From assembly GCA_905178155.1 (NCBI GenBank), contig CAJINV010000002.1, positions 5,802,859-5,866,858 on the forward strand: a stretch of 64,000 nucleotides of DNA, given 5' to 3'. A program made the translations under genes and the position numbers. Shown in pieces: positions 1 to 48,888 of the stretch. The notes beneath the pieces were generated by a model. It worked only from the letters and a program-made list of their open reading frames with translations, did not search any database and was not told the DNA's origin. Numbering within the stretch: position 1 is the stretch's first letter; the number at the start of each line of letters is the position of its first letter. Source of the DNA: Amoebophrya sp. A120 (taxonomy: Eukaryota > Protista > Dinoflagellata).

Positions 1-840
1 CAAGAAGGGCCCCCGGCCGCGGGGCCGGTCGAAGCCCGCCGGGGTTTTTCCGGTAGTCGCCGCGAAGGGCGGGCAGCTCGGGAGCAGCCGAAAAGGTTGC
101 CCGCCCGCCGAGGCCGACGGGCCAACTAGAAAGAGCCCGGCGGCCGACCTCCCCGGCCCCGGCCGTCTTGGCGCTCGCCCCTGAAGCCTGCCGCGTAACC
201 GGTCTGCCCGCCCTGTTGGGCGGGTCCGGCCACTAAAATGGCTTCTCGTTTCGAAGGAGTGGCAGCCGGAGCCGGCCCGCGCGCTTGCTTGTCGCATTGG
301 CGGGTCGACGTTCCTGGCCGGGTGTCCGTGCGAACGGCGCGACCCGCCGCGCTCGGCATGTTCCGCAGCTGTAGTCTCACCAGGGTTTTGCCTCGCTTCA
401 CCCTGTGGCCTGGGTCCTGAAAAATTGCTGCGTCGATAATAACGTCGTGGTCGAGCCGCGCACTAGCACCCACACGGAACCATAAAACGTGGCGCGCGGT
501 GTTCTGAAAGGAGAAGGATTCGGATTGTTTTTGGGTGTAGAGAATGGAGCGACGTCACTGCATCGAAAAACCAACCAGGAGAGTTTTCCAAAGCGGCCGC
601 TCGTGTCAGAAAAAGGAGCGACGGTCTCAAAACGAAGCTCTGTGTCTGCAACTGGTGCCGATGTCGAGGATTTTGCATGCATTTTTCCGAGAGCTAGTTC
701 GTGTGGAGCGGAACGTTGTTGATAGTGGAGATCTTGTATGAAGCTGGTGCACCAACAAGAGGCATTCATCGGAATCTCCGAGAGCTGCATGACGACTTTT
801 TGAAAACCTCGTTGGAGTCGAAGCCGCACCGCAGCCCAGT

Positions 841-6800: not shown

Positions 6801-9800
6801 AAATGTCTGGGTCTGGAAGAATGCAAGTTTGTCATGCTTGTCTGGCATGACTAGAAAATCTGTGTTTCATAGGTACGAAAGAGCCATCTTAACTGCCATG
6901 CAAAGAGGCAGTGCGCCATGCGGAATGCATAAGACATGGCAGCCACAAAATTTGTGATGCATAGCTGCGTATTGCGGCACGTCTATCATTCACTTTTAGC
7001 ATTACAAGTTTCCAGACCCAGACATATTTGCAATCCACACGCAGATGCAGGACCAGATCCAGCAAAAGTCGAAGCAGTTTTGCATCGACCCGAATCTCTA
7101 CTCTAACAAAGATACCTGGGTGGAGCGGGAGCTGTGGCAGCGGTGCGAATTGATGAGTGAGGAAAGTTCGGAAGGCAGCGGTAGCTCGGATGAACAATCG
7201 GAGGAAGAAGACTCGGACGAGAGCGATCACACTGAAGACGAGGACGATGATGTTCATGACAACGACCGCAGTCAAACCGAGTGCAGCCGAACCCAGGACT
7301 CCGAAGAGTCGCCTTACTCGGTTGAAACTTCGGAGACGTTTCCCAAAGCGAGGAACGGGAGAGGAGGACGACAAAGGGCTGCGAATTATCGCAACAATGA
7401 TAGTACTGACCAAACATCTGGCTACAGAACCAGCGGAACAAACGGTAGTCACCAGGGGTCCGAGAGGAGCGGCACTGGTCCTACTGCAACTCGGGGTGAA
7501 CAAAGTAGAAATCACAACGATTACAATTCATCACAGCTGGTGAACCGTTTGAAAACCTTCCAGTCTGTTCAAACTTGCGATTTGGAGTCTGGGGATGAGG
7601 TCTGGGACCCGAATGCCGATACGGATTCGGAAAACACCAGCGGCTCTGCGTCTGAAGGTGCAAATGAGGAGGACGAAAAAGAGGACAAAATGAACAGCAC
7701 GATTAATTCCAAGTCCTCCAAGCCTTCGAACGCCACCACGTCCCATTCCCACCGCCAGCACTACCAGGCCCTGCAAACCTTCGCGACGCACGCGGTGGTT
7801 GTGAGCAGAGAAACCACGAAAGACAGCACAGCGGTAGGAGCCGATGTAGAAGCGGACAACGCCAATAGTTCGCCAACCCGGAAGCAGGCGAAAAACAAAA
7901 AAAGACGCCTCTCTGGGCAGTCGGAAAGAAGGGTGAGGAAAATGTCGCAGCAGTCGAAGCTGTCCATGCGGTCCTCGGTGCGGACAGGCAATAGCAGTAT
8001 CGCGGATTCCAACATTCGACGGATTCGGGCGAGAGAAAAAGAGGGCTGGGCGGGGATCATAAAGAAAAGTGCGGGTCGGTCCGGGTCGAATCAAGAGCCT
8101 CTGGATGATCAGCTTTCACTGGACGAGGACGATCACCCGCTGCAGAGGAGGCTGAGTCACGACAGTCTCTGCTCCGAACTGATGCAGTTCAAGGATAACG
8201 TCTGCTCGCGGCATGCGCGGCACGCGAGGCGGATGAGCAATCCGTATCCGGAGGATGCGGGGTATGAACCAGTGTATGGTGGTGACCATGCGCCAGTTCT
8301 TAACCACACAAGAACTACTTCTACAGGGAACAAGACTCACAGTACGAAATCGAGCCCGAAAATGATGAAGGGTAGCAGATCTTTTGGCACCAGTAGAACG
8401 ACCAAGAATTTGGGACGACAACAGCAGAACAATAATAACGCGGCCCTGCTTTACAACCGGCCGACTTTGGAAAAGAGCACATCGGAATTAACGACCGAGC
8501 AGATTCCGGCGGATCAACTTCTGCATCCGCAACCGGTTCTTTCGCCTATCCCGGGGGAGACGTTGGTGCCCTTCCAGGAGCAGCTGCATCTGTTTCCGAG
8601 AGCAACGACCGATAATTCCTGTAGTTCAGGGAAGAAACAGCTACATCAGGCCCAGGGAGAAACTACTACGGAACTAATGCAGCAAGGGCCTATGCCTGCC
8701 GCGCCTCCTGCTGCTCTGACCCTGCCGCTCCGCCAAACGCAAGCCAGGTCTCAAGTCGCGGAGTCGGAAGTTGTACCGACTAAGGGCGGGGCGGGCCAAG
8801 CGTTAGTGGAAACACTAAACCCGACAGTTGATGTACTAGACCACGAAGATGTTGCAGCTCCGGTACTAGAGAACGACGATGGGCAGCAGGAGAAAAAGCG
8901 ACAGCAAGCTTCCCCCGTAGAACAGTCACCGGCGAGAAGTATCACCAGCAGCAGGAAAGCGAAGGACAGAATGATGTTGAAAAAGAAGAACAATTTTGAT
9001 GCTCAAGAAGTAGAACATTCTGGCCATCCAGGTGTTGTTTCCGCGTCCGCACCTCCCGCTATCCCCCCTATCCTCGAAGACATTGACGTGCAGCACCGCA
9101 CCGCGTCGGGGAAGTTGGTCAGATTTGATCTGCGAAAAACCAAACACACATCCAGCTCGGAATCAAACATCCGCAGTACGCAAATGGGAGGGGTTGTAGG
9201 CAACAAGGAAGGCAGCGGTTTGCACACCAACCACAGCTCGGGTAACCGCATGAGTGACAGCACGCCCGGTGAACTACGGACCAACAGCAGTTCCGAGGTG
9301 CCGGAAAGAACGAATACGTCTTCGGAGGTGGATCTACTTTCCGCAGCGGTGTCCGGGTTCAATACAACCAGTGCGGGAAGCTCGGTTCAGAACTTTCCGA
9401 CGCAGGAGGGGGATCATGATGACCTTCGACGTGTGGGTCGTGAGAGCAAAAGCAATCAGGATGTTGAGCAGGATCATTTTACATTCGCAGGAACTACAGG
9501 AGCCATGATGCCTGTGGTGCCAACTGTCGCTGGAGAAAACGCGACCAACGCGCGCGCTTTCAATGTTCCAGTCCGCGAGGACAGTGTCAGTGCGTCGAAG
9601 CCGAGTAGCACTGTGGGCAACACCTCGGACGACATGATTTCCTGGTCGTCGAAAAAGTCCAAAAGGTCGTCCCGCTCTCACCGAATAAAGGACCACAGGC
9701 GGGGGAGTGGTGGTAAAAGCGAGCGGAAGGAAGATACTCTCAGAGAGGACGCAAAAAACTCACCAAGAAATACAGTTGCGGATACACAAGTAAAACAGCA

Positions 9801-10671
9801 GAACACTTCCTTCGACACTCTGAATCACACTGCGCGCAGCAGCAGAAGCAGTAAAAGAGGAGACTATGATCAGAGAAGGAAGGAGGGAAGGGATGATCAT
9901 GAACACGATAGGAAACGAGCCGATGGTTACAGAAGCAGTTCGGGAGAGAGGAGTCGAGCGCACGCCGGGCGAAACAAAAAATCTGCCTCGTCGGATCATC
10001 AGGAAAAGAAACGAAGAGAACGCGACGACAATGAATGTGAAACGAGTGGCCCAGGCGACCATGGTGAAAACAATGTCGAGGGGGGGAGCTACAATTGCAA
10101 CACCAAATCCGGCAGTAGTCACTCGCAAAAGTCGCATGCGAATACCGGCCCCGGCACTAGCGCAGACAGCGTCGCTCCTCCAGCAGAGCAACAGAAGTCA
10201 AAGTCAAAAAAGCACCACAGCAAGGACAAGCATCTGCAATTACCGCGGAACAGCAACAACCTTGCGCAAAACGATGCTGCGAGTACGCTTTCTGATCTGC
10301 CGTCAAATTCCGGCTCCAAGTATTCCTCTTCTCACTTTCTCGACTATGAACCGCTACAGCAAGGAGGAAATAGTGCTGGACCAGGCTCGTACGTCGGAAG
10401 TTCCGTTGCGCCGGAAGGAGCTGCAATTGGGACCAATAGCAAACCAAAAACTTCTTCTTCGCACACGCACCGCCGCGCATCTGTTACTGCGGGCGGTGGG
10501 ACCACAGCGAGCCACGGAGCCGCGTCGAGGGGCAGGCGGAACAGTGCGGCCATTATGAACGTGGATTACTGCTTAGTCGATGTGGCGATGTTGCAACAGC
10601 CCCCCGGCGGCGCGGGTTCCTCGCAAGACCCGGAAAATCGAAAATCATCCCGACCCAGTGCGAGGAAGTGA
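841..10671 (+). CDS. Cyclic nucleotide-binding-domain (CNG/HCN/KCNH-superfamily) 6TM ion channel, ~2632 aa, 8 exons
   Basis: Exons 841-3014, 3328-3424, 3628-4689, 4975-5028, 5298-5373, 5704-5752, 6029-6788, 7045-10671 join in frame (7899 nt) on removing each element plus one DR. S4 LLKLVRMWRL, S5 LLFGHFCGAIWFYV, C-linker LPLTLRSRILSFFTY, CNBD PGDYICKEGDEGTGMYFLLKG...FFGDLSLL...RRTASVRA. Confidence 0.9.
3015..3322. mobile_element. Introner, family B (TATGGAAGCGTCAGG TIR)
   Basis: TIRs ~25 bp; exact DR TTGCA; 308 bp; removal gives EKLLH-SLRSE. Confidence 0.9.
3425..3622. mobile_element. Introner (TATTCAAAAAAAAAATACCATCGCAATCAC TIR)
   Basis: Imperfect TIRs; exact DR CATCG; in-frame join. Confidence 0.85.
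4690..4969. mobile_element. Introner, family D (TATCCTGAGTAAAAACGT TIR)
   Basis: DR CTCCG/CCCCG; join FVAP-VGIII. Confidence 0.9.
5029..5292. mobile_element. Introner, family A (TATCAAATGCAAAAATGTCTGGGTCTGGAA TIR)
   Basis: Exact DR ACATG; in-frame join. Confidence 0.9.
5374..5698. mobile_element. Introner, family E (TATCAAAAGGAAAAATCCCCCCTCCCC TIR)
   Basis: DR GTTGC/GGTGC; join restores C-linker RLPLTLR. Confidence 0.9.
5753..6023. mobile_element. Introner, family A
   Basis: DR CGGGT/TGGGT; in-frame join. Confidence 0.9.
6789..7039. mobile_element. Introner, family A
   Basis: Exact DR CGCAG; in-frame join. Confidence 0.9.
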
Positions 10672-12984
10672 TGCTGGGAGCATTGCGATGAAATTCGAGT
10701 GTGAAATAGAATGTAAGAACTGTGAGCATCTGAATCTCTTTATGTGTGTTTCACTGTTAGACAAAAGGGGGACTATGAACAGACAGAACATAATTTCATT
10801 TTTTCATGGAAAAAAATTATTGCGATGAACTTGAACATGAATATGAACCTTTTCCTTGTCGTATGATAAACCCGGCCACGGAATCAATATCAAATGTGAC
10901 AAGAACCGACAGCATAGCTTATGAACGTATTCGTATTGTCGCGACCTCAACATCCTTTTATTTTTTTTTGCTTACGTTACGCTCCGGCTCCGGCGAGTAA
11001 TCTACGTACTCTCGTCTGCTATGTCACAGCCAGCAGCGCATCCAAGATGTCTTTGTCTACTAGCTGAGGCTGGAGCCTATAGCGCGGCCTTCTGCATGTG
11101 CATTTTTTCACAGTCAAAAACTGTCTTTGTCCAATGTAAATGTTAGCCCAACAGCCAACTGCAGCTGTTGCATAGTTTTACCCGATTACTCAAACAGACA
11201 AAGGACATGGAACAGCTAAAGCACCCCTTCCACAATCCTGTACATACACATAGCGCAAAACCTTTTTGATGTGATATTGCTAATTTTTCGAACCAAGAGT
11301 GCGCAGCTGCGGCACACACAGCGCGAAGAGGCTACGTAGTGTGAACACAGGAAAGAGCTGAGCACTTTGAAAGGGCGACTCTTTGAATAAATTCAATCGA
11401 CTCTCGGCAGTTTTCGAAGTCAACTTCTTCTGCTTTTTTGTTCCGTATCGACCGGTGGTGCCGGCGGCGTCGCGCATTCACTTAGCTTGTTCCTTCTTTC
11501 GAGTGTTGCGCAACAGCGGAAGCAGTTGGCCATGCCATTTGAGAAAAGAGGAAGACGATTTCACAAGGCGCCAGATACAGACACGAGAGAGGGCGGCTGC
11601 AGCAAGGGCCCGCCAGCGCGGCTGCCGGGGCAGCTTTTGGCTTTGGTGAGCCTGCCGCCACACGGAGGGGCACTGCCCGAAGCCGTCGGGATTGCGCGCA
11701 GAAGCGGCCCGGGCCGCTTTTTGGCCGGCGCCATGTCTTTGCTTCGGGGGCGCATTGATGCATCTGCAAGGAAGAGAACGAGGCGCGCAGCATGCCCATT
11801 GGCGCTTAGCTGCCTGCGCGCTTTTGCGGCGACTTCCAGTGCATTTATCTGCAGGAGACCAAAACCGCAGGGGCGCCTCTCTGTTGCAGACCAAAACCGC
11901 AGGGGCGCCGTGCGCGCACACAACGCAACACCGCTGCGAGCGAGATCGTCGACAAATGTTTCAAGAGTAACCCGCTGCGCCTTGTAGTGCCGCGCAATGA
12001 GGTAGACAACTACAAGGCTCTCGCGGGGCGCGCGCAGCTTGAGGGCGGGCCAGGCAGCCGCGCGCGCGGCGCCGGGCCGGCTTTTTCGATCGCCGAAAGG
12101 CGGGCGCCATTGCATGGCGCGGACGCCGGCACCGGGCGGAGCAATTGGCCCGCGGCGCGCGCTTCCCCGCCCGGCGCCGAGCACGGCAGAAATCTCGACA
12201 CGATAGAAATGCGGGCCAAGGATGAAGCAGTGGGCGCCGTAATCCCTTCCTCATATCTGTAGCCATCTGCCATGGAAGCCGGGCCCAGCCGCTGGGGGTC
12301 CAGGCCAACGAGCCACCGCGGCGACCAAAGGGCGGCGACCCGTCGCGGTCGGCGAGCGAGGGCGCGAGCCTTTTGGAAGCACGACATGAAGGCGCCCGCC
12401 GCGGCCGCCGGCGAAGGAAGTGAATCAAGGCGGGGCGGGGCCTTTGGGCCATCCGAACAGGTGTGGCACCCAGCGCGCGCGCCCGCATGTCGCCTCCCTT
12501 GCGAAGGGGCACCCGCGCGATGTCTTTGGCGAGTTGCACGCGCCGCCTCGGTGCCCGTGGCCGGGTTCTGATGTTGGTGCCTCGCTATTGATATCCTTGT
12601 TGTGGTATAGCAATAGACCAACAGCAGCAAGACCAAGATCGGCGAGAGCGAACGCTTGCATCTTTCGCCAGGACTTAGTAGCGGCGCTACCAACTAGGTA
12701 GGTTGTTCCTAGTCGCCCGCATGACAAGTGGCGCATTTAGACTTGGAGAGAAATCACCATGAAACCTGAACTGCGTGAGCTTGAGTAGCAACATCGATAC
12801 GAAATCCACCGGCGAAGATAACAAAGCTTGTGAGCAAGAAGGAGTTTCAAGAGAGGTCCCGAAAGCTATGACCGCACGAAAAATTCAATCAAAATTAATG
12901 ATCATGCCTCAAAATCCGCCCACCGCGAAAGCTGCACTTGTTCCCCTCTTCTAACTCGCGGCTCCGTTCCCGGAACGCCCGGCG

Positions 12985-15900
12985 ATGACGTGGGCCACGC
13001 GCGGCGGGTCGTCGAGTAGCTCCGCGCCGGGAGGAAGTGCTACCGCTGCCACTGCTTCTAGTGCACGTTGTAGCGCAATGAAGTCTAGTGCATCTGGAAA
13101 CACCAGGATACGGAAGTTTCTCTTTCTCCTTCCGTCCGCAACCACAACCGCCATTCAGCTTCATGACACGGCCGAAATTAAGCAGACCACAACTAGTAGC
13201 ATGGTGCACTCCAAGCTCGCCGCCGCAGCACTGAAAGAAAAGGAGATCCAAAGGGGGAAACGGAAAGAGCGACTGTCCAAGGCAGCCGTTTCCTTGCACC
13301 AGCATCACCAGTCTGGCGGCGCAACTAGTACTAAAGAAACTTCTTCATCTGCGGCTGCAATCTATTCCAAGCATGCCAGCAGTGCGGGGGGAAAGACAAA
13401 GAAGGGGGAAAAGCAGACGAAAATGTTTTTCACCTTCATAGGCGATCCAAACCCCTTCGACCAAGACGACCAACTTTTTCCCAAAGCCTGCTACCCGGAG
13501 ATCACCGAAGCGGCGGTGCGGTGCTGCAAAGCAAACAAGAACGAGACGGACAAAGTTATGATGGAGGATTTGCGGGACTTGTCGGGCAGGCGGGGAGGCA
13601 ACGACGATAAATTTTGCAACGGGCAAGGTAAATGCAAATTGAGATTTTGTTTGGCTTCCATTTGTTTCCACTCAACAACTTTTAGCCGGTTCTTCTGCCA
13701 CTGATGTTAGTGGTCGCACATCAAGCATCAGAGAATTAGAAGCAGTACCTTCCACCTGAAGAGCAACAGAGGGAAATTTGACAAATCGTCCACGTTTTCT
13801 GCACCACAGGCGAATGGGTCGACGGCACGCAGGTAGCCGACTTGAAGGGTCTCACCCAAGCCGAGGCGATGCAAATTTGCTCCAACGCCGGCGCGCGTCT
13901 GTGTGATTTCGAGGAGCTACGCGCCGACAAGACTGCGGGGACTGGGTGCCAGTTTGACGATCACAACATTTGGAGCAACACCGAGTGCTACGAAGAAGGA
14001 GTGTACGTCAACAACTGGCTCACGATCGAGGGTATGGATGAGATGAAAAGTAGAGAGCACCTCGTCGTGTAATGTTACCTCGATCTGCATGAGGAGTTGA
14101 GTTCACATGGAAGTAGCACTTCAAACTTGTCATGCGCTAGCTGCACGCATATTGTGTAAAAATGCGCGCATTCTGACAACGTTGTACTACACGGGGATGC
14201 ACTCCGACTTTTCTCATCGATACAAGAAATCAGACTCTCCGATCCAAGATTCATGAACGACGCGAACAAAAACGTGAGTTTTTTGCTGCTGCTTTAGCTT
14301 ATTTTCACTTCTATGTACTGCCGACGGATGCAAATAGATTTAGATTTTGTGATGCGAAACTGACTCGTACCAATGAAACAACTCAGGTGATGATGGCCGC
14401 TGCATTCAACTGGACCTACCCCTTGACGGCAGAGGCAGAAAATATGGGAGTGTCAGAATTGAAATCGTCAAAGTTGAAGTGATTTGTCATGCATAAAATT
14501 CGACGCAAAAAGTGCCTCTATTGCAGAGGACGCACGGAAGGCAGATTATAGTCCCGGCAAGGGTCAAAAGTTGGACTGCTGACTAGCATGACAGAAGGCA
14601 GCGCTTTTGCCCTAAACCGCATGACAGACTCGCTTCCAAGTCCGGGAAAATTTGCCATGCACCGACTACAAGCAACAAACAAGTCGTGACTGATTGTGCA
14701 CAGTAGTGTAGTGCTTTATTATAGAATAGCATTTATAGACGTATAGGGTGAATAGGTAGTCGTTACAACGAAAAAGCAAACACTATATGCGATTAGTTCT
14801 GCGCTCTCATGATGATAAGTGCACGCTATCACTCGGTACGTCTTTCGTGTGAATGCGTTGAACTACGTCAATCACTCCACTGAGATTCCGTTGAACTACC
14901 TTCGTTGCACGACCCACAACGTTTAAGTAGATGCTGCATTTCTCTTCGCGCGTGCCCGGCCCTCGACGCATGACCTCTGCTGCTTTGCTCTGATTGACCT
15001 GCTGGTTCCAATCGCTTGGGTGGATGTCTTGTTGCGGTTGGCCTGCTGGCTCCAACCTGTTTTTTGCTTTGCACTTCCTTGTTTTTCAGCAGCTTGTCTG
15101 CTGGCAGACGGTAAAGAGATTATCCTACAGTGGTGAGCATGCACCCTCGGGCGCTGTAGGTTTGGTCATCTTTCTCTTTACGCGAGCACCTACCCTGCTT
15201 CTGTACTTTTTGTGGTATGTTGGCCCATACCAGTACAGTTTTCGGTCGGGTAGGACCCCGGGTGGCGGTAGTCTGCTTCTTGTCTTGATTTTTTGCTGCT
15301 GCTGGGCTGCTCTGCTTGCGCGCCTTTCCCTTCTTCGATGCTGCTCTCGTTTTCCTCGTACTTGACCAGCGGATAGAAGTGTACCAATTCGTTGCTCTAC
15401 CCACTAAAGCCCAATCGTGACCATGCCCGTAGGAACTACTTTATTAATGTCTCTACGACTTTTGACTTCAATCTTAACCTTCACATGTATTCCTACCTAA
15501 CTTGTGTTGTTATTTTTTGTTTTTTCTCTGTACGACTACGATTGGCCAAAGCGCCACCGGGACAGCCTGCCCGTAGATCACCGATGCCATGCACCGACTA
15601 CAAACTGTAGGCGTAACTGGTATCCGTTCTATGCATGACAAACTATTTCGACTTTGACGATTTCAAACCTGACGCATCCATAGAAAAATGCACCAAGGGG
15701 TGGAACCCGACACCAGAAAGTTTAAACGAAACGCACTACGGAATCATGTGGGACAGACTAGCCCGTGTGAGCAGGGTACAGATGATCTGATGCAAATGTA
15801 AGGGCGATTGTCTGTTTTTTTCCGTCGATGCGCGAGAATCTTTAAGATGTAGCTCCACTGTTTTTGAATGTTGCTCGTCCAATCGATAGGCGTAAATGCT

Positions 15901-16266
15901 TGTTCAAAAGGACGTAGCTACCGCCTCGTGCTCGTCCATCACCCCCCCTTCACACGACATCAGGTCGAGCTGTTTGCGCAGAGCAGCGAGGGCGCGGCGT
16001 TTACGACTACCACCAAGATCATCGGACTGAAACGCGACGAGGACGGGACACAGACGGAGATTTTCTCCTTCGACAACATACAAACCGTGACGCCCGACGG
16101 CATCTCGATTTACCTCGACACGAAACCCCATGAACTGGTGAACACCCTGAAGCTGATCAAAAAGTGCTCCGACCGGCAACCCTGTTTCGAGCTGTGCGGG
16201 CTGCGGGTGGCGGTTGAGAGGGCCTGGCGCATGTGGCCCGGGGATCCGGGAATGTTGGATCGATGA
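12985..16266 (+). CDS. Hypothetical Cys-rich, probably secreted protein (~466 aa) with a small lectin/Link-like Cys module
   Basis: Exons 12985-13627, 13810-14031, 14227-14273, 14387-14442, 15688-15764, 15911-16266 (last junction and start codon uncertain). Motif AVRCC...LTQAEAMQICSNAGARLCDFEEL...GTGCQFDDHNIWSNTEC. Mix of GT-AG introns and introners. Confidence 0.7.
14033..14222. mobile_element. Aged introner now bounded by GT-AG (intron 14032-14226)
   Basis: TIR TATGGATGAG..AAAAGT / ACTTTTCTCATCGATA; DR decayed GAGGG/CAAGA; join IEE-IRLS in frame. Confidence 0.8.
14443..15682. mobile_element. Introner, family B, carrying a nested insertion
   Basis: Exact DR GAAAA; 1240 bp minus 932 bp (insert plus one duplication) = 308 bp, the same length as the copy at 3015. 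Confidence 0.9.
14672..15584. mobile_element. 913-bp unclassified insertion with 19-bp target duplication
   Basis: TGCCATGCACCGACTACAA at 14653-14671 and 15585-15603. Confidence 0.8.
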
Positions 16267-17269
16267 GTTTTTTTCTTTGCGATTTTTTCCCTTTTGAAAC
16301 CTGATGCATAAGAAAGTGGGCATGACCCAACAGAAGCCGTCTGTTGAGTAAGTACCTCAGTATAGGACAGCTTCGTCGAAAATGCACGAAACAGACAAAT
16401 GAGGAAACGGAACATACACATCTAACGATAAATATAGCGAAACGAATAGAGCTACATCTAAAGAAAATTTCGAAGAAAACATCGGCGTGAACGTCATACG
16501 AAATCAAAATGAATTTGTACCATAAGGGCAATCTCCTCGGTTTCATTTTTTTCAAGACATGAATGGGGATTGCAGACTTGAACAGATTCTTTCAAGAAGA
16601 AACTCCGATAAGCATGAACATGACAAAAGAAGAAAAAAAAAAGTAGCGGCGATCATGTGTCGAAAAGCACAACCATCGACGATTTTCTCTCGCATGATTG
16701 TGCACATATGTAGATACCGGGTTCTATTATGGATATTCGGCGTCACATTGAATTCGGCGTCCTTCCAGCACCCGCCGGGCTGGACAGGAAGAAATCCCAG
16801 CAAAAGAAAAGGCAAGGCTCCAAGCCTAGGCGGTGGCAACTGGCGGCGCAGGGCATAACTCCGTGTTTTCCTGTGGCCCCCGGTGGCGTCGGTATACCTC
16901 TCCTTCCGCTCCGGCGTTTTGAGAGTCAGCAAGACCTCTGGTTGCGCTGTGGTTCTTGGATCCGGTTTGACGTCAGGCTGAGCACATGAGGAGGGTTGTT
17001 CAGCACTGGCGGCTCTTTGGAGGTTGATCTGCTCACACGGATGAGGAGGTAGTGTGATGCTTATCTGAAGCGCAGCAGCAGTGAGTTTTCGGACTCACTC
17101 ATACTGTGCGACTCCCTACGCTTGGTCGTTCACCGCTAAAACGGGTGGTGTTTGGTCTTGTTGTAGTGCCTAAGCTCTCAAGAGTTATTCGCAAAGGACT
17201 TGCTCTCAGGATTCTTTAGCTGTATATGTCAGACAGTTACTCGCAGGCCATAAGAGGCGAGCAAAGGGT

Positions 17270-18460
17270 TGAATTTGAAATCAAAATCTGATTATCATAT
17301 CGGATTTGATCGTGAATCTGAATGGGTGTCCCACTAAATGTGTGGCGCTAGCTAACAACATCCAAAATGCAATAATTCCAACATATTTTCTCATGATCTG
17401 ATCATTTCCGTGGTAGGATATTTCTTTCTTTCTTTTCGTGTCTGGGTATGGTATCAAAAGGCATGATATTTGATGTTCTTATTTTTGAAATGAAAAATTT
17501 GATTGAAAAATATTTCGGATCCATAGTAATTCATCGATATGTTTTTTGGAAAATAAAACATTTCTAGGTTATATTTCATCAGAAAAGAAATTTCGTCGAA
17601 ATTTCGAATCTAAAGTTTTGCAATTTGGGATCTTCGATGATCGATATACATTTTTTTCGATTTTTCTTGTCATGAGATTCATGGAAAAATTTGAGATTCT
17701 CTTTGATGATTTTCGGATATCAATTTATTCTTCCTGATTTATGAGGATCATTAGATGTCGAAATTTTTTTTAAAAAAACATCGAGAAATTTATATAGATT
17801 TTTTTTTTAAAAATATCAAGAAATTTTTCAATCATTCAAAAGATGAATATCAGGTTTCATGTTTTTCAGAGAAAAACGAAAATTTCAGAGATCATTTTGC
17901 GATTTCGAAACAGAATAAAAATCATGTTGATCGATATGATAATGATTGAGACACCAAAAAACTATATCGATATGATAATGATTGAGACACCAAAAAACTA
18001 TCAAAAAATTTCTGCAGATATTCAATAATTTTTTTCTATACCGATTCTTTCCTCACCATGAATATTTTCAAAAAAAATATTAATACCCCGACATCGATCA
18101 ATCCAGATCCTAGATTCCAATTGATATCATCTTGAATTCCTATATTTGAATTGAGAGAAAAAGATTTGATGATGGGAACAGAGATAGACAGACAATCATG
18201 GACCAGACCAAAGATAAATTATGAAACAGGACAAATTTGAATCATCCCCAGACATGACCAGGAAGAAAAAAATTGGTTGTTGCTGCGTGATTTTTTGTTT
18301 TGGTATGGTGATCATCATCAAGAAGTTTTCAATTTGGTATTTTTTTGTCTTTATTCTCAGCAATTCATGCAGTATTCTTCTGCAACCACCACTATGCATG
18401 TTGCACATCAATTTCAATAGAATAAATAAGTATTCACATGCTGCATTTCCTTTTCCATCC
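17270..18460. other. AT-rich island at the convergent strand-switch region
   Basis: Visibly A/T-run rich compared with flanks; lies between the 3' ends of the + and - gene blocks. Confidence 0.75.
17930..18001. repeat. 36-bp tandem duplication
   Basis: ATCGATATGATAATGATTGAGACACCAAAAAACTAT x2. Confidence 0.9.
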
Positions 18461-18464
18461 AATA

Positions 18465-19292
18465 TCATTCCAAAACCAACCCCCACCCGTCGTGTTCTTC
18501 TTCGATAGTCCCTTGAATTCGCCACAGTGAGTCGTAGTGCAAGTGGTTGTGCCATTTCCCCAACAATCGAACTCGCGAAAATCTTCTCGCGGTCGTATCG
18601 TAGAACAGCTTCACGATGAGACTCATCGGCCGATAGGATTCCCATTCCGGCCGCGTGGTGTCTGTTGTCTTTACCACACAAGTATACCCGACGATGAACT
18701 CAATGACCACCTCGCGCTCGATGTACTTGTCAATCTCCGCAGAAGGATCTCGGATTTCTTCTGTTCTTCTTGTGTCGTTCTGCATTTCAATTTCTTGCGC
18801 TTGCCTGTGCAAGAACAACTCATGATCTTCGCTCTGCCTAGCAGAAGCTTGTTGCCCCCGCTGCTCTTCATCTTCTTCCTCCTCATTTTTCGATACATTC
18901 AAAATCGAGCGTCCGTAGTCGAGTTTCTCCCGATACACCCTCCGGAGATAGAAATCCTGCGCCCCCCGGATAAAGATCCGCTCAACTTTTGTCGCGAAAA
19001 AACTCGGCTCGTTGGTCGCTACTAATCGGGTTCCTTTTCTTCTGCCGGAACTCTCGAAGTTCTCATGCCACGCCGCTCTGGTCGGACGCTTATCCACCGG
19101 CGCGCTGCGTGGAACTTCTTCTCGCGGCGCGATATCCGCCTTTGTAAAGCCCAATCCATTTATCGGTAACGAAACGGGAAGAATCTCGTCCTCCTCGAAA
19201 TTCGTCGCCCTGTCATAAATTTCGTTGAAGACGGCGAGGTAGTCCAGCTGTTCCATCACATGCGAGACCAGCGGATGTGCGTAGGCTTCCAT
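18465..19292 (-). CDS. Hypothetical protein, intronless (~275 aa; ORF open to 19592)
   Basis: Long ORF, protein-like composition from MEAYAHPL; no recognised domain. Confidence 0.6.
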   Translation of the reverse strand: MEAYAHPLVSHVMEQLDYLAVFNEIYDRATNFEEDEILPVSLPINGLGFTKADIAPREEVPRSAPVDKRPTRAAWHENFESSGRRKGTRLVATNEPSFFATKVERIFIRGAQDFYLRRVYREKLDYGRSILNVSKNEEEEDEEQRGQQASARQSEDHELFLHRQAQEIEMQNDTRRTEEIRDPSAEIDKYIEREVVIEFIVGYTCVVKTTDTTRPEWESYRPMSLIVKLFYDTTARRFSRVRLLGKWHNHLHYDSLWRIQGTIEEEHDGWGLVLE

Positions 19293-20055
19293 ATCGAGAT
19301 TTTGATACCTCCAAACCCCGGCGCTGGTACTACCAAATATAGCCGCCGGGGCGGGGGTAGTGAGGTCGTGGGCGTTTTTTTGCCGACCGCCGCCTTGGCC
19401 GCGCCTTTGTTTTTTCTGGGCTCGCCATACCGCCGTGAGTAACGTTATGCCGCACGGTATGGCGGCCACTTGGGAAACATCACAAATTTTGGCACATTTC
19501 CCAAATTCCTTCCCGAAAGCCAGCCCCGATGCTATGGGGCCGATCCGGGTGCCACGGGGGGCGCCCAAAAAGCGAAGAAAAACCGGGCCCATAGCATGCG
19601 GATTGGCTTTGCGCGTCTGGGGCGTTTTTTATTTTTCGCGTTTTTATTTTTCACGCCGGCGCTTTTTGCAAAGCTTCCCAGGCTCTAAAACCGGCGAAAA
19701 GGCGGCCGCTTTCGCGGCCGCCCAAGATGCTCCGAAATCGCGGCCGTGCCATGCTGTTTCGCTGTTCTGATTTTGGGCGCGTTTTTTGCGCGCCCCTTTT
19801 TGGGCGCCCCAAATCGCCAGAAACCAAGGCGGCGGGCGCCTCGGAACGGCGCCCCTTTTGCCGGCTTCCCTGCGTCGTTTTATCCAGTGCGAATCGATAG
19901 TTTTCGACCGGGCTTGTTTGACTTCAAAGCCCCGGAGGCTTGATAATTGAAAATCTTTTATGTCAAAAAACGCTTCCGGCCGCTTGAAAACTGCCGGTCG
20001 TTTTTCACGGTAGGTGGCAAAAAAACTCCCCGGTTAGAACCGTTCGGTGACCTCA

Positions 20056-21772
20056 CTACATACTATCGGGGTACGGACTGCTCAAAACTTCCTGGACCTT
20101 TGCGTCCCAGTCTGTCTTCAGGCGGTCATGCAGAACCTCGTTTTGAAACTTTTCCAGCGCCTCGATAAACGGAAGGACTCGGTTCGCGGTCGGGTACCGG
20201 ACTTTTTGGAGGCGGAGGAGGTGCGTGGCGGGCCTCTTTTCCCGCACACCAGACGGAGTTACAGTGACGCCTTCTACTAGCATGTCTACGTACTGCTGCT
20301 GCGGGTGACACAGTAGAGCATAACTGCGCAGATGAGGTTGAAGATGAGGGCCTATTGTTTCTCTCAGAGCAATTTCTCAGAAGGTATTTTTGATCTTCTT
20401 CGGCTACAGTAGCGACATTTACCGGCACCAGTAACTGATCCAATACTTCCTCGGCTAGCAATACAGATACACCCGGACGACGAGCAAGGGGCCCCCCGCG
20501 GGAAATAAGCAGCTCCGGAGCAGCGCCATAATTCGACGGGCCGGTGGGACGAGTTCTTTCTTGGACATCATTATACTCCTCCTTGCTACAAGTACTACTT
20601 CTCCTGAAGAACCTCGTGTTGGGCGAAAGCTTCTTCGGCGGAGGAGGTTCTTGTGTTAGTACACCAGGTGACTCAACATCTTCCGATGTGGAGATGAACC
20701 TCGCAGCACGAGTGGCGTCGTGATTTGTTACCTTTGTTGTGCTGCAGCTCCGCCGTGGGGGTGAGGGAAAGGTAAGCAGGTGCCAGTTGTAACCGCCGTC
20801 TCTTGATGTAGTTTGTCGCATGCCGAAAGTTGTTGTAGCGTGGTCCGAAGATGCTGTAGTCCCCAACAACCCAGTCACGGCGTCGTGCACCTTATAAAGC
20901 GGCCAATCGTTGGAATTCTTAACAAATTCGCTTGTTCCAGTGCCTCTTTGTCTGTCCTCCCAGTCGTCCGCCCCACCGATCACGAGGTGCGATTTGGGGA
21001 AAAGATTTTGCACAACCAAACTTTTATTTCTACCCTCTTGGTCGTTGTAAACGATCTTGTCGCCCGCCGCATTGAAGATTTCCACTAGGACCCACGTGGT
21101 ATCTTCTGGTTGTATTTTTTCCTTTGATTTATTCTCAGTCTTATTTTCTGCCAGCTGGAAGCGATCTGGATCTACTTCACGTTCACGCACAAATTCATTG
21201 TCCCGGATAGAAGCAGTTCCACGTGGATTGCCAAATTCTTGTGACGCAATTTCATCTTCTCTGCAATTATCATGACGACGACGGTGGGTCGTGTCCGGAC
21301 TTCTGTCCTCCGCCTCTTCATCTCTGCTACGCTTTGGCGGTAGAAGTATGTTTCGAGATGAAGGTGTTAATGCTGGTGAACAAGCAAGGTCGCTACTTGT
21401 ATTGTCGTGGTCTGTGATCATGTTTAATATGTCGCATAAAAAAGTTTCATCTTCTTCACCTTGTCCAGGCACCGGGGACGATGGCACTGCGGGCGGTTTC
21501 GAGGAGACAACGTCATTTTGTGTAGTTTCCTCCTGTGCAGGAACTCCGCCTCCTTCTTGAACGTGACTCGCGTCCTCCTGTCGATCCGGAAAAAGCGGGA
21601 ACCAGGACGACGAACTGGAGCTGAAAATACTGCGGGAAACCAGGTTTAGAGCGTACCCAGTCTTGAGTGAAGACAGCGTGGCACTGCAGGTGAAGAGAAG
21701 TTTCACAAGTTTCACAGCGCACCGCAAAAGGACACCAGGGGCAGGGAGGTGCCGTGGCGGAGAAAGGCGCAT
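20056..21772 (-). CDS. Hypothetical protein (~530 aa), one GT-AG intron 20299-20422
   Basis: Phase-0 GTAAAT...CCGCAG intron joins DQLLVP to QQYVDMLVEG; hydrophobic N-terminal stretch. Confidence 0.65.
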
Positions 21773-24390: not shown

Positions 24391-27234
24391 TCACGCGTTG
24401 GGCACCTTGGACACGCCCGTGCCGCTGAAGGGCGACGGCAGAATTTCGTCCTTTCCGGTGCTGTAGAGATCGAAGTCGCTCTTGGCGTTCTCGACCGCGG
24501 CCAGGGACGCCGGCGCCGAGGGGCACTCCTCGGGCGGGGGCTGGCTGTCTTCAAAAGAAGAGTACTGCGGCGGCAGGGACGCAAGGTTCCAGAAAACGGC
24601 CATGGTGCACATCGGGGGCGCGGAAACCGTCATGCACTCATCCATAATGTCCGTGATCCAAAAACCTGAAATGGAATATGATAGTGATGTTGTATTTTTT
24701 TTGAATACAAAGCAAAAAAGTAAATATAGCGGTCACGACACGGCGACGGCGAAAACATATCATCAACAGTCAGAATTTCAATCCCCAATTGTTTCTCTCT
24801 CAACCAATGACACCAGCGTATCGGTAATAATTCTACTTTGCCTTTGCATGATCATTTTTATAGGAAGTACCTGGGCAGGACACCAGCGTCAAGATGCAGT
24901 GCGTGAAGCACATCGGCAGGCGTCCCACCGGCGTAGGCTCGTAGCGGGACATCGGGGAGTTGCAGCGCGGGAAGATGCTGGCGCACTGCTGCGACATGTA
25001 GGAGGCGTAGCAGGCCTTGTACAGCTGATCCGGCGCCTTTCCAATCCGATCCTTGAACAGCCCCGGAAAGCCCGCGATCACGCTATCCCGTGCAGAAACG
25101 TCCCCACCCAAAAGTAGATTTGCAACGACAAGAACGTTTGTGATGCACAGCCCCACGACAGGCATTTCCAGTCGTGGTTTGACATTTGTAATGCTGTAAA
25201 CAGGATGATCAGCTGGGTTTGCAATGCCGCTGCCCTTGCTAACCTGCGCTACAATACGGACCGCAACTTGTCATGCGTGACTCCCAAAGCTTCTAAAGTT
25301 TGTGTTGCGAAGTCCCCATCTTGATTCTGGAGTGGAGACGTTTTTCCTCAGGATACACGCCATCCAGTTGCGCATCGGTGACGTCCGCGATGACGAAGTC
25401 CGCCGCCGTGATGGGGTAGAGCACCGCGCCAAGGTATCCCGTGTACTAGAAACGTCCCCACCCCAGAATCAGTTGTAATGCAAATCTGCATGATTGCAAA
25501 AATGTTTCTCATGCGGAGACCCATGAGAAGCAGTTTCTAGCTGTGTTTTGAGATTTGTGATGCTTGAATTAGCATGATGTGCGAGATCTTTGATGCTGCT
25601 GCACTAGCTAAAGCTTTTCGATTTGTCTAGCAGATTTCCCATCTCGACTATGGGGTGGGAGCGTTTTCACTCAGGGTACAAAGCAGTTGTGTCCGGTGAT
25701 CATCGGCAGACAGGGCAGTGTATGAAATGCAAATATGTCTGGGTCTGGACCAAAAGAGCTTGTCATGCTAAATCTGAATCATGTACAAGTCTGTGTTGCA
25801 TATGCATGATTACCAAAAAAAGCTGTCCACTTTTGACATAATTGAGAGGCAGTTTCTCATGCAGGATAGGCATGATATAACTCTCACAGAATCTGTCATG
25901 CTATGTCCTACATATCAGACCTCGTGGGTCATGGAAAACCTGCATGACAAGTTTACACTCTTCCGCTTCCCGACCGAGACATATTTGCATTTTATACAGT
26001 GGCTGGTTGATCCAGATTGGCGGCGGGATCAGTGGGGGCACGATCTGCAGCACGATGTTCATGGCTATGGCGTTCTCAAACGTTACATTTTCACCTGTTA
26101 GATGATTTGTCATGCAAAATTACAATTAGAATTGACACGATCAAGCTGCTTCGCATGACAAATTATCGAAGAGGAAGAGCCAAACAGGCCGAGAATCTGT
26201 GCCAGCTCTGTCATGCAAGACGCGCAAGGTCACCCCTTTCACGGTTGTCATTCTTGCATCACAAAGTCATGTAACAGTTGAGAATGTAACAACTGAGACC
26301 GCTATAATGGCGCCCTGAATCAACCCCGCGCCGGACGCCAGCCCGCTGACCGCCAGCATGATCGGCATGCCGCCCGCGGCCCCGGCGGCGCCGGAGGCTT
26401 TGCTGGCCAGGTCGGATGTGAGTTTTGCGATGTCGAAGCCAAACAACCGGCTGACGACCCCTCCCGGAAAGGGGGAAACGCCCTTCAGCGCCGCAGCCGG
26501 CGGGGGGATACCGAAGTCGCAGTGGGCACCCCCGTATGCAATGCAAAAGTTGTATCGCCGTGGTTCTACTAATTGCAACGCATGTTCTACTACAATTCTT
26601 CTTCCTAGGGTTATACTAGAGTAGGATGACAAATTCTTGCACTTTTGTTATTTTCGGAAAAGTTCGTCGGTCATGCAATGGCGACTAGTACGATACTTAT
26701 TTGCAATGCCTACCGCGACGGAGGACTTGTAGCCGGGAGAGGCCTTGAGAAACGACACCGCTTGGTGCAGTTGGTCGACGTGCTGCTTGTAGGCGGCCGT
26801 GTCGAAGTATGCATTGCAAAAGTGTCTGGATCTGGTATTGCGTGTTTTGCATTCCTGAAAAATTTGTATTGCGCAGCCAGCAAAGGCGCCACCTTTTCTT
26901 CATGCAAAAAAGCAGTTTGTCGTGCGTTCTACGCATCAGACGGCGTCAAGCGAACTTGTCATGCTTGGCTGCACTAGAGCTAGCCAGACGTATCCATACT
27001 TTAGCATCACAAGTGTCCAGACCCAGACATATTTGCTCTTGATACGAAGTCCTTCGCAAGGTGGTCGTACGCCTGTTTGAACGCCGCCTCCACCTCCGGG
27101 GATTGCTTCTCGTTGAAGAGCGTGATATACGCATCCTCTTCGGACAGGTTGAGGCGGTCCATCTGCTCGGCGCTCATCACGGCTTCGGCGCCTGTGGCGG
27201 CCGCGGCGGCGAACAGGAGGGAGCGGTAGAACAT
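24391..27234 (-). CDS. Secreted Cys-rich protein (386 aa); C-terminal Cys spacing reminiscent of Frizzled-CRD/Mid1-like domains
   Basis: 8 exons (27234-27045, 26802-26713, 26529-26307, 26060-25997, 25715-25679, 25429-25356, 25078-24871, 24665-24391) total 1161 nt; signal peptide MFYRSLLFAAAAATGAEA; CYASYMSQQCASIFPRC...PMCFTHC...SCPG. Confidence 0.85.
25084..25355. mobile_element. Introner, family D-like
   Basis: Exact DR CACGC. Confidence 0.85.
25435..25678. mobile_element. Introner, family D
   Basis: DR CAAGG/CAAAG. Confidence 0.85.
25721..25996. mobile_element. Introner, family A
   Basis: Exact DR CAGTG. Confidence 0.9.
26066..26306. mobile_element. Introner, family G (TATGGCGTTCTCAA..GTTACATT TIR)
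   Basis: Exact DR ATGGC. Confidence 0.9.
26535..26712. mobile_element. Introner, family H (TATGCAWTGCAAAAGTATCG TIR)
   Basis: DR CCCCG/CCGCG. Confidence 0.85.
26808..27044. mobile_element. Introner, family A
   Basis: Exact DR CGAAG. Confidence 0.9.
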
Positions 27235-34000: not shown

Positions 34001-36118
34001 TGTGCTGCTGCTGTCCTCCCGCCTGCGAGCCTCCGCTCGCGTTGCTTGTGTTGACGCTATATCAACTGTAAAGATGTCTGTGTCTGGAAGATTCTGACAC
34101 TTGTCATGCACGTTTTGCATGAGCCATGATGTCTGTGATGCATACCCTAGCAATACAGATTATATGAGGGCTTCTTGATGCGTCTTCCGCATGACAAATG
34201 CCTTCTCAGCGTAGCAAAAATTGCATTTCCTTTGGTACTCATGCAATACAGATTTTTTTGGAATCCAAACGCAGCATCACAAGTTGCATTCTTCCAGACC
34301 CGGATATTTTTACATTTGATACGCTATCCGCGGAGTGGTCGGCGCGCTTCGTCAAGTCTGCCGGCTCTTTCGGGAGCTCCTGCATGGTCGTGTTATGCAT
34401 TGCAAATATGTCTGGGTCTGGAAACTTGTGATGCTGGGTGGCGTATCATGAGGAGGCCACAAGTGCTGGCTCAGCATGACAAGTTTCTCAGCTTCTAGGT
34501 GTTGCCTATTCTGCATGACAAACTGCGTTTCTGCATGACAGAAAAGTGGCGCTCTTGGGTAACGTGCATGACAGATTTGACAGTCATGCCAGACAAGCAT
34601 GACAAAAATGCACTGTTCCAGACCGAGACACTTTTGCAGTTGATACATGTTGGGTGGCTGCAAGTCTCCTACTTGCAGGTTGTTGTAGTACTTCGCCTTC
34701 TCCTTCTTGTTCTTTTTCAATTTGCCAGCCTGGGAAGTAGAGGTGGAAGCAGATTTGTTCGTTTTAGTTCTGTTGTTTGTCAGGGTGAGCGGCCCGCTCG
34801 GGACAGAGTGGTTCTGCTGCTGCTGGGGAGGAGCAAAATAAACTTCTCCTGCGTCTACGTTTTTATAGCCTGTTCAGCAGGTACAATCTCAAACGTTACG
34901 AGTAGAAATCTAAATCTGTGATGCAAAAAAATGTGCATCATCTAGCCTACTATTACAGGAGTACGCATGTTGACAAGGTCCGGTCGTGTCCGAAATCCCA
35001 TTAGCATTCTGGCGAAAGTTGTATTGCGAGAAGCGCAAGGGCAGCAGCAAGACTCTGCATGTTCCTCATGCTCTCTATGCAACACAACAGCATCAACACA
35101 GATTCAACAAGATTCTATCGTAAGAACGGTTGAGATTGTAACACCTGAGCGGGTCATATTTTTGTGCAACTACTTCTTCGACCGCTGTCGTGGGCGATTG
35201 GCCGAGCTCGGGAGATGTGGTCAGCGATTGCCCCATTCGCGGCGAGTCGGGGTTTTCGGACACGGGTGACAGCATGTTCCCGAAGAGGTTCGAAGATCTT
35301 TGCACGTTACTCGCGTTAATATCGCTGTCCGAGCAGTACTCCGGGGAGGAAACCGCGTTCAGATTCTGTTCAAGCAGCCCATCGAAGCTCGTGTCGACTT
35401 GCAGGCCGTAGCTCCACAGCGAGGTCGTCGCGGACCCGGCGGTGCGCTCGGGCCCGTTCGGGCCGCCAAGCGACGATGCGTTGGACGAGGGTACAGCCAT
35501 GCTGCCAATCAAAGTTGTACTATCACGGCTGCAATGCAGCGGTGTTCGCTGTTCAATAAATCCAATCAAACCCGGGCAGCTAGCAGCTGCTCCTCAAAAA
35601 CTCCGCTGTGCCCGCCCGAAGGGTTCATTGCCGCCACGACCGCGGTATCCTGTGCAAAAGTATCGTACTCGTATTGCAGTCATGCATTACAAATCTTGTT
35701 CTTAAGGCAAGTCCGCATTACAAATCTTATTTCTCATGCTGAGGAAATTTGTAATGCATTTATACGAGTACGATACTTTTGCAATGCATACACGGCCCCC
35801 GCCGGTGCGGGTGTGGGACAACTCGTCGTCAGGGAACTGCTCTTTCGCGTCTGCAGATGAGAGGGTGGTGGTACTCAACTGTTACATTCTCAACTGTTAC
35901 ATGATTTGTCATGCAAAACTACAATCAGAATCGGCACGGTCAAGCTGCTTTGCATGACAAATTCTTGAAGGGCCAAACAGGCTGAGAAACTGTTCCAAAT
36001 CTGTCATGCAAGACGCGCAAGGTCACCCCGTCCACTTTTTCCATTCTTGCATCACAAACTCGTGTAACAGTTGAGAATGTAACGTTTGAGAACGCCATAA
36101 GAGGGTGGTGGTACTCAT
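31079..36118 (-). CDS. Large low-complexity hypothetical protein; 5' structure unresolved
   Basis: In-frame joins across five family-A elements from 34869 down to stop at 31079; upstream of 34870 one junction and one in-frame TGA (35594-35596) are unresolved. Confidence 0.65.
31381..31631. mobile_element. Introner, family A
   Basis: Exact DR CACCG. Confidence 0.9.
32146..32409. mobile_element. Introner, family A
   Basis: Exact DR CTTCT. Confidence 0.9.
33542..33783. mobile_element. Introner, family A
   Basis: Exact DR TCTCG. Confidence 0.9.
34060..34321. mobile_element. Introner, family A
   Basis: Exact DR CGCTA. Confidence 0.9.
34394..34645. mobile_element. Introner, family A
   Basis: DR CGTGT/CATGT. 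Confidence 0.9.
34878..35147. mobile_element. Degenerate IR-bounded intron, ends unresolved
   Basis: CAGGTACAATCTCAAACGTT / AACGGTTGAGATTGTAACACCTG inverted repeat; no clear DR. Confidence 0.55.
35646..35790. mobile_element. Introner, family H
   Basis: DR CGCGG/CACGG; 145 bp. Confidence 0.85.
35865..36099. mobile_element. Introner, family G, with left TIR tip replaced by exon sequence
   Basis: 18-bp DR AGAGGGTGGTGGTACTCA at 35860-35877 and 36100-36117. Confidence 0.85.
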
Positions 36119-48149: not shown

Positions 48150-48613
48150 AGAATAAGGTAACAAGGAGCTTAGACGTGACCGGGGGGGTCACGTCCGTCC
48201 GTCCGGCCGGACGGACGGCACGTGACCGGGGGTCGGTCGTGGCGCGCGGACGTGGTGGCCGCTGGAGCAAGACAACCGCCGGCCTCGGCCTCGCGACCGG
48301 GGCCGGAGCATTGGGAGGATTCGCGCCCTTTTTTCGTGAAGGCCGAACTCATGACCTTTTTTTTTTTTAGTTGGGCGCCCGATCTAGCTGACGGCCCCCG
48401 GCGGCGTGACCGGGGGGCGGAGCGTGGCCAACAGAGGCGCTTCTTCAGTGACATGCCGAGCTCATGACCTTTTTTTTTTAAGTTGCCCGGGCGCGCGCGT
48501 CGCAGCGGCCACCACGTCCGCGCGCCACGACCGACCCCCGGTCACGTGCCGTCCGTCCGGCCGGCCGGACGTGACCCCCCCGGTCACGTCCAGGCTCCTT
48601 GTTACCTTATTCT
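48150..48613. mobile_element. Intergenic GC-rich MITE-like element with ~115-bp TIRs
   Basis: AGAATAAGGTAACAAGGAGC...GCTCCTTGTTACCTTATTCT; internal CGTGACCGGGGG subrepeats; possible TA duplication at 48154-55 and 48608-09. Confidence 0.85.
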
Positions 48614-48888
48614 GATGATGATGTTGGCAGTGTGCCCTTTAGCGGACTGCTGCGTGCTACTCCCTCCTCCAGCCCGAGAGCAGCTGAACGCCGATCCTCT
48701 ATGGCGAACAGTTGATCTATACCTTAAGGGCGCGGCTGTTATGAGGCTAGGTTTTTCCGGACTTGGGTGTGGGCCTCACACTCACACACGTCGTTCAGAG
48801 GGGACCAAAAACGCACACACTGTAGCACTCTGCATTAGTGTAGGGCGAAAAATAAATACTATTTAGCAGTGTCTAATGATCTTCTTCC

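What the first reader, a model, noticed from the sequence alone, without database searches (positions are those of the whole stretch)
14028..14227. Introner caught converting to a canonical GT-AG intron
Seen: a 190-bp TIR element whose DR copies read GAGGG and CAAGA. GT (14032) to AG (14226) spans exactly 190+5 nt and leaves GAGG|A in frame. Inference: only the intronic DR bases changed, creating GT and AG in the 4/5 register. This supports that register and shows a route from non-canonical to ordinary spliceosomal introns. Several others already start with GT in this register (e.g. GTAGGC at 26713, GTACCC at 25679).
Basis: partly seen in the sequence, partly recalled or inferred. Interest (0 to 1): 0.75.

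Follow-up and report, generated by a model that had tools for sequence, protein, structure and literature searches.

The report
Aged transposon intron with GT-AG ends
In the marine parasite Amoebophrya, one old transposon-derived intron is missing from transcript-type contigs at ordinary GT-AG ends; it likely gained one or both ends by chance mutation after landing, but the sequence cannot show which, so it hints at a conversion route and does not prove one.

Summary
Observation confirmed; 'caught converting' only partly supported. 14033-14222 is a real TAT...ATA inverted-repeat element (0 of 10,000 shuffles as good). Likely-RNA contigs of two runs (one study) join 14030 to 14226 with one base of slack, fitting GT-AG at 14032-14226. 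The spliced frame equals an annotated Amoebophrya A120 protein. Six informative junctions fit only the 4+1 register, which this scan already noted on many other windows. Direction is unproven. The flanks GAGGG/CAAGA match at 2 of 5 bases, no outgroup covers the site, and the AG-making difference is a silent codon position. A neutral model gives about 0.5 for one end new, 0.17-0.38 for both, 0.08-0.35 for born canonical. One GT-AG element among 44 is what chance predicts (0.8-1.6). In 18 of 19 GT-starting elements the G sits in both repeat copies, so these did not convert. 0 of 7 other informative mismatches carry the canonical base in the intron. Canonical introns with this repeat layout (15% in A120) and the NNAGG geometry are published. 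Within this window, the match between mismatches and splice signals is somewhat unlikely by drift (1-2%), which leaves a testable genome-wide question.

The parts
14032..14226 (+). 195-nt GT-AG intron = last base of upstream repeat copy + element + first four bases of downstream copy
   Evidence: joint 14030>14226, both=1, GT..AG at +1 in X1 and X3; spliced frame equals annotated protein
14033..14222 (+). 190-bp TAT...ATA terminal-inverted-repeat element (introner); carries the internal AAACTTGTCATGC motif shared with other elements; no full-length relative in the window
14028..14032 (+). upstream copy of the inferred 5-bp target duplication, GAGGG (four bases exonic, last G = intron +1)
14223..14227 (+). 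downstream copy, CAAGA (four bases intronic ending in AG, last A exonic)
14220..14220 (+). A at intron position -7 (first A of terminal ATA); candidate branch or ruler base, inferred
   Evidence: A at -7 in 44 of 44 elements and 5 of 6 other GT-AG introns
12823..16266 (+). host gene from the start of transcript cover to the stop codon (452-aa protein, no Pfam family, Cys-rich repeat at ~225-280) with three further GT-AG introns and a 1240-bp introner
34389..34650 (-). comparison element (GT-AC): transcript keeps repeat base 4 of the upstream copy, so cut k>=4
   Evidence: table 8
34859..35163 (-). comparison element (AT-AA): transcript keeps repeat base 5 of the downstream copy, so cut k<=4
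   Evidence: table 8
26530..26717 (-). comparison element starting GTAGGC at 26713; G present in both repeat copies; ends GG, not AG
25430..25683 (-). comparison element starting GTACCC at 25679; G present in both repeat copies; ends TT

Best explanation
This is an aged Amoebophrya introner that is missing from transcript-type contigs at GT-AG ends, and it likely reached that state by ordinary drift of its two target-duplication copies, with one splice signal likely present from insertion and the other likely gained later. Shown: the TIR, the cut position, the fixed register (one base before, four after the element) and the frame. Inferred: a MITE-like element made a 5-bp duplication; the fixed register makes intron +1 the fifth duplicated base and -2/-1 the third and fourth, so any target ending in G gives GT and any NNAGN target gives AG. 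The single most likely history is that AG was original (silent GAA to GAG change in the exon copy) and GT arose by A to G at +1. Inferred too: one relaxed U2-type spliceosome handles both intron kinds by reading U+2, A+3 and an A at -7. On that reading the change is a strengthening of signals within one pathway, not a switch of machinery.
For: Junction and frame. Register k=4 is the only value that fits 6 of 6 informative junctions. Neutral posterior for exactly one new end is 0.49-0.54 over omega 0.1-1; from the same numbers 'GT new, AG old' is the larger part for omega up to 0.5 (my arithmetic). Chance expectation of GT-AG elements is 0.8-1.2 or about 1.6 (3.7% each) among 44; observed 1. 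Focal-like cases by drift alone: 7-14 per 29,850 elements (total from PMC7789003 section 11). 0 of 7 other mismatches at +1/-2/-1 carry the canonical base in the intron. An older-looking element (28226-28538, TIR score 4) stays AT-AC (restores the frame, junction not seen in RNA). +2 T, +3 A and -7 A hold in 44 of 44 elements, and the 5 terminal-triplet changes all fall at +4, -5 or -6 (p=0.03). -7 A in 4 of 4 contig-confirmed and 1 of 2 predicted GT-AG introns (p=0.015). All 9 predominant A120 non-canonical ends in the published Table S4 are NT-NN.
Against: Within this window the coincidence is unlikely under drift: a GT-AG element with mismatches at both signal positions is expected 0.011-0.021 times per 44 elements, and it is the most diverged repeat of the 44. 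That favours selection for, or longer survival of, canonical ends; the look-elsewhere correction (229 windows noted) is my argument, not a test. The simulation is crude (third positions free, assumed omega and transition bias). My catalogue was chosen by eye (45 of 72 rows, one then set aside), favours intact repeats and misses old elements. TAT/ATA constancy is partly built into the search (at most one terminal mismatch allowed). U1 snRNA was not found in these genomes, and no lariat was tested, so the shared-spliceosome step is untested.
Confidence: 0.5

Rival explanations
1. Full conversion: the target was GAGGA or similar, the intron was non-canonical at both ends, and both GT and AG arose later in the intronic copies, possibly favoured by selection.
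For: Two of the three mismatches sit exactly on the signal bases; only 1-2% per window under drift. The GT-making and -4 differences would be non-synonymous if exonic (E>G, E>Q). It is the only one of 19 GT-starting elements whose G is absent from the exonic copy. Boundary conversion over time is reported in Symbiodinium (GA towards GC; bioRxiv 2020.10.14.339549).
Against: Neutral probability only 0.17-0.38; the AG-making difference is silent in the exon; the site lies in an unconserved linker, so exon changes are cheap; 0 of 7 other informative mismatches carry the canonical base; GT-starting elements do not have clearly weaker TIRs (p=0.08, 0.12 without the focal one).
Confidence: 0.28
2. 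Born canonical: the element landed in an NNAGG site (such as CAAGG), was GT-AG from the start, and the exon copy has since drifted while the splice signals were held.
For: The intronic bases read CAAG+G, which fits the C-N-N-N-G bias of the duplications (C at 1: 18 of 44, p=0.05; G at 5: 18 of 44, p=0.04). The same geometry (5-nt TSD NNAGG, donor from the last TSD base plus the first element base) is described for Polarella class 12. About 3.7% of insertions would be GT-AG, nearly all from birth.
Against: Needs a non-synonymous exon change (G>E) plus a silent one; only 2 of 14 other coding mismatches are silent, which suggests that intronic copies do most of the drifting. Neutral probability 0.08-0.35.
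Confidence: 0.2
3. An ordinary old GT-AG intron whose ends pair by chance, or into which an element merged; the 'repeat' is not a target duplication.
For: Flanks match at only 2 of 5; no full-length family member in the window.
Against: TIR 0 of 10,000 shuffles; TAT at +2 and ATA at -7..-5 exactly as in the other 43 elements; shared internal motif; the four contig-confirmed GT-AG introns show weak end pairing (best 11-13 against 24).
Confidence: 0.02

Closest known systems
Introner elements of Amoebophrya sp. A120 (Farhat et al. 2021, PMC7789003; read: abstract, sections 10, 11, 12, 16, 32, supplement passages incl. Table S4 rows; figures not visible)
   Same: TAT start, seven bases, run of A (right arm); inverted and 3-5-nt direct repeats at the boundaries; the paper states the same DR/IR organisation in 15% of A120 canonical introns; host protein carries the A120 label.
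   Different: The paper calls the splice position relative to the hairpin variable or unknown (Fig. 3 legend, Fig. S23 legend: 1-5 nt); the sections read do not discuss conversion or a -7 A. Here one register fits all 6 informative junctions and this copy has a decayed repeat.
Polarella glacialis ILE classes 12 and 14; Symbiodinium boundary conversion (Roy et al., bioRxiv 10.1101/2020.10.14.339549; read parts 1-2 of 4)
   Same: Class 12: 5-nt TSD NNAGG, acceptor from the TSD, donor from the last TSD G plus the first element base, i.e. the same 4+1 geometry. Splice-site conversion over time is documented.
   Different: There the acceptor is consistently recruited from the TSD; in this window only 3 of 44 elements end in AG, so canonical ends are the exception.
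Euglenid 'intermediate' introns (Milanowski et al. 2016, PMC4770533; read: 12 passages)
   Same: Hairpin-ended nonconventional introns, some with a GT/GC start and one with GC-AG, proposed as open to transformation into conventional introns; the authors warn that a GT/C end alone is no evidence of kinship.
   Different: Euglenid nonconventional introns are reported to leave as circles, not lariats (review PMC11282704, section 6 read), so conversion there would change machinery; here a shared pathway is inferred.
Fritillaria borealis non-canonical introns (PMC11282704 section 6; PMC13326754, 9 passages)
   Same: MITE-derived TIR/TSD introns removed by a retooled U2 spliceosome.
   Different: Dominant AG-AC/AG-AT ends and duplicated U2AF; none of this was tested here.

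Membership tests
Amoebophrya A120 introner element (Farhat 2021) | Terminal inverted repeat of 8-20 nt or more, forming a hairpin | tested here: met
   score 28, 0 of 10,000 shuffles; fold z -3.95
Amoebophrya A120 introner element (Farhat 2021) | IR begins TAT, seven bases, then at least three A | tested here: met
   right arm TAT-CGATGAG-AAAA; left arm has the same with a 3-nt insertion
Amoebophrya A120 introner element (Farhat 2021) | 3-5-nt direct repeat overlapping the exon/intron boundaries | tested here: inconclusive
   flanks 2 of 5 identical; removed length is element+5 as in the other elements
Amoebophrya A120 introner element (Farhat 2021) | Repeated in the genome as a family | not testable with these tools
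Amoebophrya non-canonical intron | Splice sites other than GT-AG | tested here: not met
   joint fits GT..AG; it belongs with the published 15% of canonical introns with DR/IR layout
U2-type GT-AG intron | GT and AG at the removed ends | tested here: met
   one base of slack; alternative GG..AA breaks the register fixed by 34394
U2-type GT-AG intron | Lariat at a branch adenosine, spliceosome dependence | not testable with these tools
   only contigs available; -7 A conservation is indirect
Introner converted after insertion | Ancestral target site lacked GT and/or AG | tested here: inconclusive
   no orthologue; 35 of 431 alignments to distant homologues span the site, none conserved there; model only
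MITE / non-autonomous TIR transposon | Cognate transposase in the genome | not tested
   genome not held; PMC7789003 section 16 reports putative transposases only in A25

The most novel reading that the evidence does not exclude
In Amoebophrya A120, introners enter as non-canonical introns through a fixed ruler (U+2, A+3, A-7), and selection or longer survival then turns their intronic target-duplication bases into GT and AG, so that part of the 'ordinary' intron complement is made of domesticated introners; 14032-14226 is a both-ends convert caught with its TIR still visible.
Probability: 0.2. Interest if true: 0.65.

Novelty: new member of a known kind. Interest (0 to 1): 0.32.

Why it matters
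How transposon-made introns with odd ends become ordinary introns is an open question in intron evolution. With a fixed register, each mismatched target duplication becomes a small natural experiment: the exonic and intronic copies started identical, so a genome-wide count of which base sits in the intron tests selection for GT-AG without an outgroup. One case cannot carry that claim. Here it mainly confirms the register and shows that the GT starts are inherited from the target site.

Tried and rejected
No whole genome was held, so the genome-wide count was not possible. Raw RNA runs X7 and X8 did not map (11 and 0 reads): no test. In one search the DNA-like run X5 filled the joint table with repeat artefacts, so those junctions were read from the contig-piece table; for 38255 only one side is displayed, and 35646 (one unlocated mismatch, 5-nt overhang) was left out of the six. 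Polarisation attempts failed: two homologue searches returned only the A120 protein itself; the metagenome scan gave three short domain hits; 592 distant homologues match mainly residues ~225-280 and are unconserved at 288-289; no Pfam family. An exact TIR pattern had no match in viral contigs. Scans for further GT-AG introns with TIR at +2/-5 gave only shifted versions of known elements or AT-rich noise in the top rows inspected. The four contig-confirmed GT-AG introns show no convincing introner remnant. TIR decay in GT-starting elements was not significant. The automatic frame for the focal site was wrong and was corrected. Literature searches found no paper on conversion or a fixed register in Amoebophrya; subscription papers and figure images (Farhat Figs 3, S19-S23) were not visible and may bear on this.

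Full report
1. Observation. The window reads GAGGG (14028-14032), a 190-nt element TAT...ATA (14033-14222) and CAAGA (14223-14227). The two ends align as an inverted repeat of about 30 nt (score 28). 0 of 10,000 shuffles reach this, and 1 of 10,000 with the terminal triplets fixed. The 195-nt intron folds into a long hairpin (z -3.95, 0 of 200 shuffles). It carries a 13-nt internal motif shared with other elements but has no full-length relative in the window. The flanks agree at 2 of 5 bases, so the direct repeat is inferred.

2. The junction. Contigs of runs X1 and X3 (RNA by the tool's guess, one study; they skip many introns and have no cover in two intergenic bins) join 14030 to 14226 with one base of slack: GT..AG at 14032-14226, or GG..AA one base earlier. 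The spliced frame contains, letter for letter, a 452-aa protein labelled Amoebophrya sp. A120; that annotation may rest on the same data and is not independent. Retaining the intron gives stops in all frames. In another stretch, contigs of the DNA-like run X5 run through element ends unspliced.

3. Context. A scan gave 72 candidate rows. I kept 45 by eye (family TIR, frame rescue), set one aberrant copy aside (35872) and analysed 44; a further decayed element (28226-28538) turned up later. Removing element+5 nt opens long frames and gives the strand. 31 of 44 have perfect 5-bp duplications, 10 have one mismatch, 2 have two, and the focal one has three. Removal is seen in contigs for 11 elements (15 of 31 joints shown) and 6 more, plus one side of a seventh. 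This is the published A120 introner system (PMC7789003).

4. Register. Where the two copies differ, the transcript shows which copy each base came from. Allowed cuts (bases kept from the upstream copy): 14033 {3,4}; 25435 {2-5}; 26535 {3-5}; 34394 {4,5}; 34864 {0-4}; 38255 {3-5}. Only 4 fits all six, assuming one rule, and two non-canonical elements bracket it without the focal case. The published Table S4 agrees: all 9 predominant A120 non-canonical ends have T at +2, although the paper calls the position variable. Earlier notes of this scan report the same register on other pieces of this genome; they are unchecked, and I had reached it before looking.

5. What the register implies (inference). 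Intron +1 is duplication base 5, +2..+4 is TAT, -7..-5 is ATA, and -4..-1 is duplication bases 1-4. No lariat was tested, and U1 snRNA was not found in these genomes.

6. Is it converting? G at position 5 is mirrored by C at position 1 (18 of 44 each), as a symmetric target preference would give. (b) 3 of 44 end in AG, as expected from AG frequency 0.065. One GT-AG element is the chance expectation (0.8-1.2; 3.7% each). (c) For the focal site, position 1 is GAG/CAG (E/Q), position 3 is GAG/GAA (silent) and position 5 is GAA/GGA (E/G). The AG may therefore be original. A neutral model with omega 0.1-1 gives both signals new 0.17-0.38, one new about 0.5, born canonical 0.08-0.35, and all three changes intronic 0.06-0.32. 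(d) No outgroup: searches returned only the same protein or distant domain homologues that are unconserved at residues 288-289. (e) No trend: 0 of 7 other mismatches at +1, -2 or -1 put the canonical base in the intron (one of the seven is the late-found element, one lies in a UTR), and the decayed 28226 element remains AT-AC.

7. Comparison. Farhat et al. state that 15% of A120 canonical introns have the DR/IR layout. Roy et al. describe the same 4+1 geometry on NNAGG targets (Polarella class 12) and boundary conversion in Symbiodinium. Intermediate introns open to conversion were proposed in euglenids. Seven literature searches found no paper on conversion in Amoebophrya; the library is incomplete and figures were not visible.

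8. Verdict. A real introner-derived GT-AG intron with a confirmed junction, and a new member of a described class. At least one canonical end was likely gained after insertion (about 0.75-0.8), both about 0.3. A selected route to ordinary introns is not shown (0.2) but is directly testable genome-wide. Interest 0.32.

Noticed in passing
window 35860-36117: Element whose plus-left TIR (13 nt) is replaced by a copy of the exon sequence beside its other end, giving an 18-bp direct repeat on both sides; looks like template switching between the duplication copies or an assembly error. It removes the transcript-3' ATA and the -7 A; it lies upstream of the gene's long ORF and its splicing was not seen.
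   Followed up: partly
window 14443-15682: 1240-bp TIR element with perfect GAAAA duplication in the same gene, related at its ends to the 308-bp element at 3015; removed as a 1245-nt AT-AA intron. Its ~800-bp interior was not characterised.
   Followed up: partly
window 48890-50311 (minus): Peroxiredoxin-like gene (named from recalled motifs, no family call) with one introner and two predicted GT-AG introns; the 323-nt intron 49338-49660 holds a one-armed copy of the ~150-nt introner family whose internal sequence abuts the 3' splice site.
   Followed up: partly
window 28226-28538 (minus): Decayed introner (TIR score 4, duplication 4 of 5) missed by the scan; removal restores a 915-nt frame; ends AT-AC. 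Shows that old elements can stay non-canonical and that the catalogue misses them.
   Followed up: partly
elements 34394, 35646, 28226: All three mismatches at intron position -1 have C in the intronic copy; GT-AC heads the published list of predominant A120 non-canonical ends. Too few to judge.
   Followed up: no
window 24666-24870 (minus): Ordinary GT-AG intron flanked by an exact 5-bp repeat (both=5) but with no TIR or introner motif; proto-splice-site coincidence or fully eroded element.
   Followed up: partly
window 48150-48620: Large GC-rich palindrome of about 450 bp in an intergenic region.
   Followed up: no
window 16900-20150: Repeated sequence without clear TAT...ATA ends (contigs from other copies map at 17094-17098, 19412-19726, 20011-20014) beside a very AT-rich stretch at 17300-18500; possibly a larger mobile element.
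   Followed up: no
window 793-10671: After removal of seven introners, a single 2,648-codon open frame with no GT-AG intron needed.
   Followed up: no
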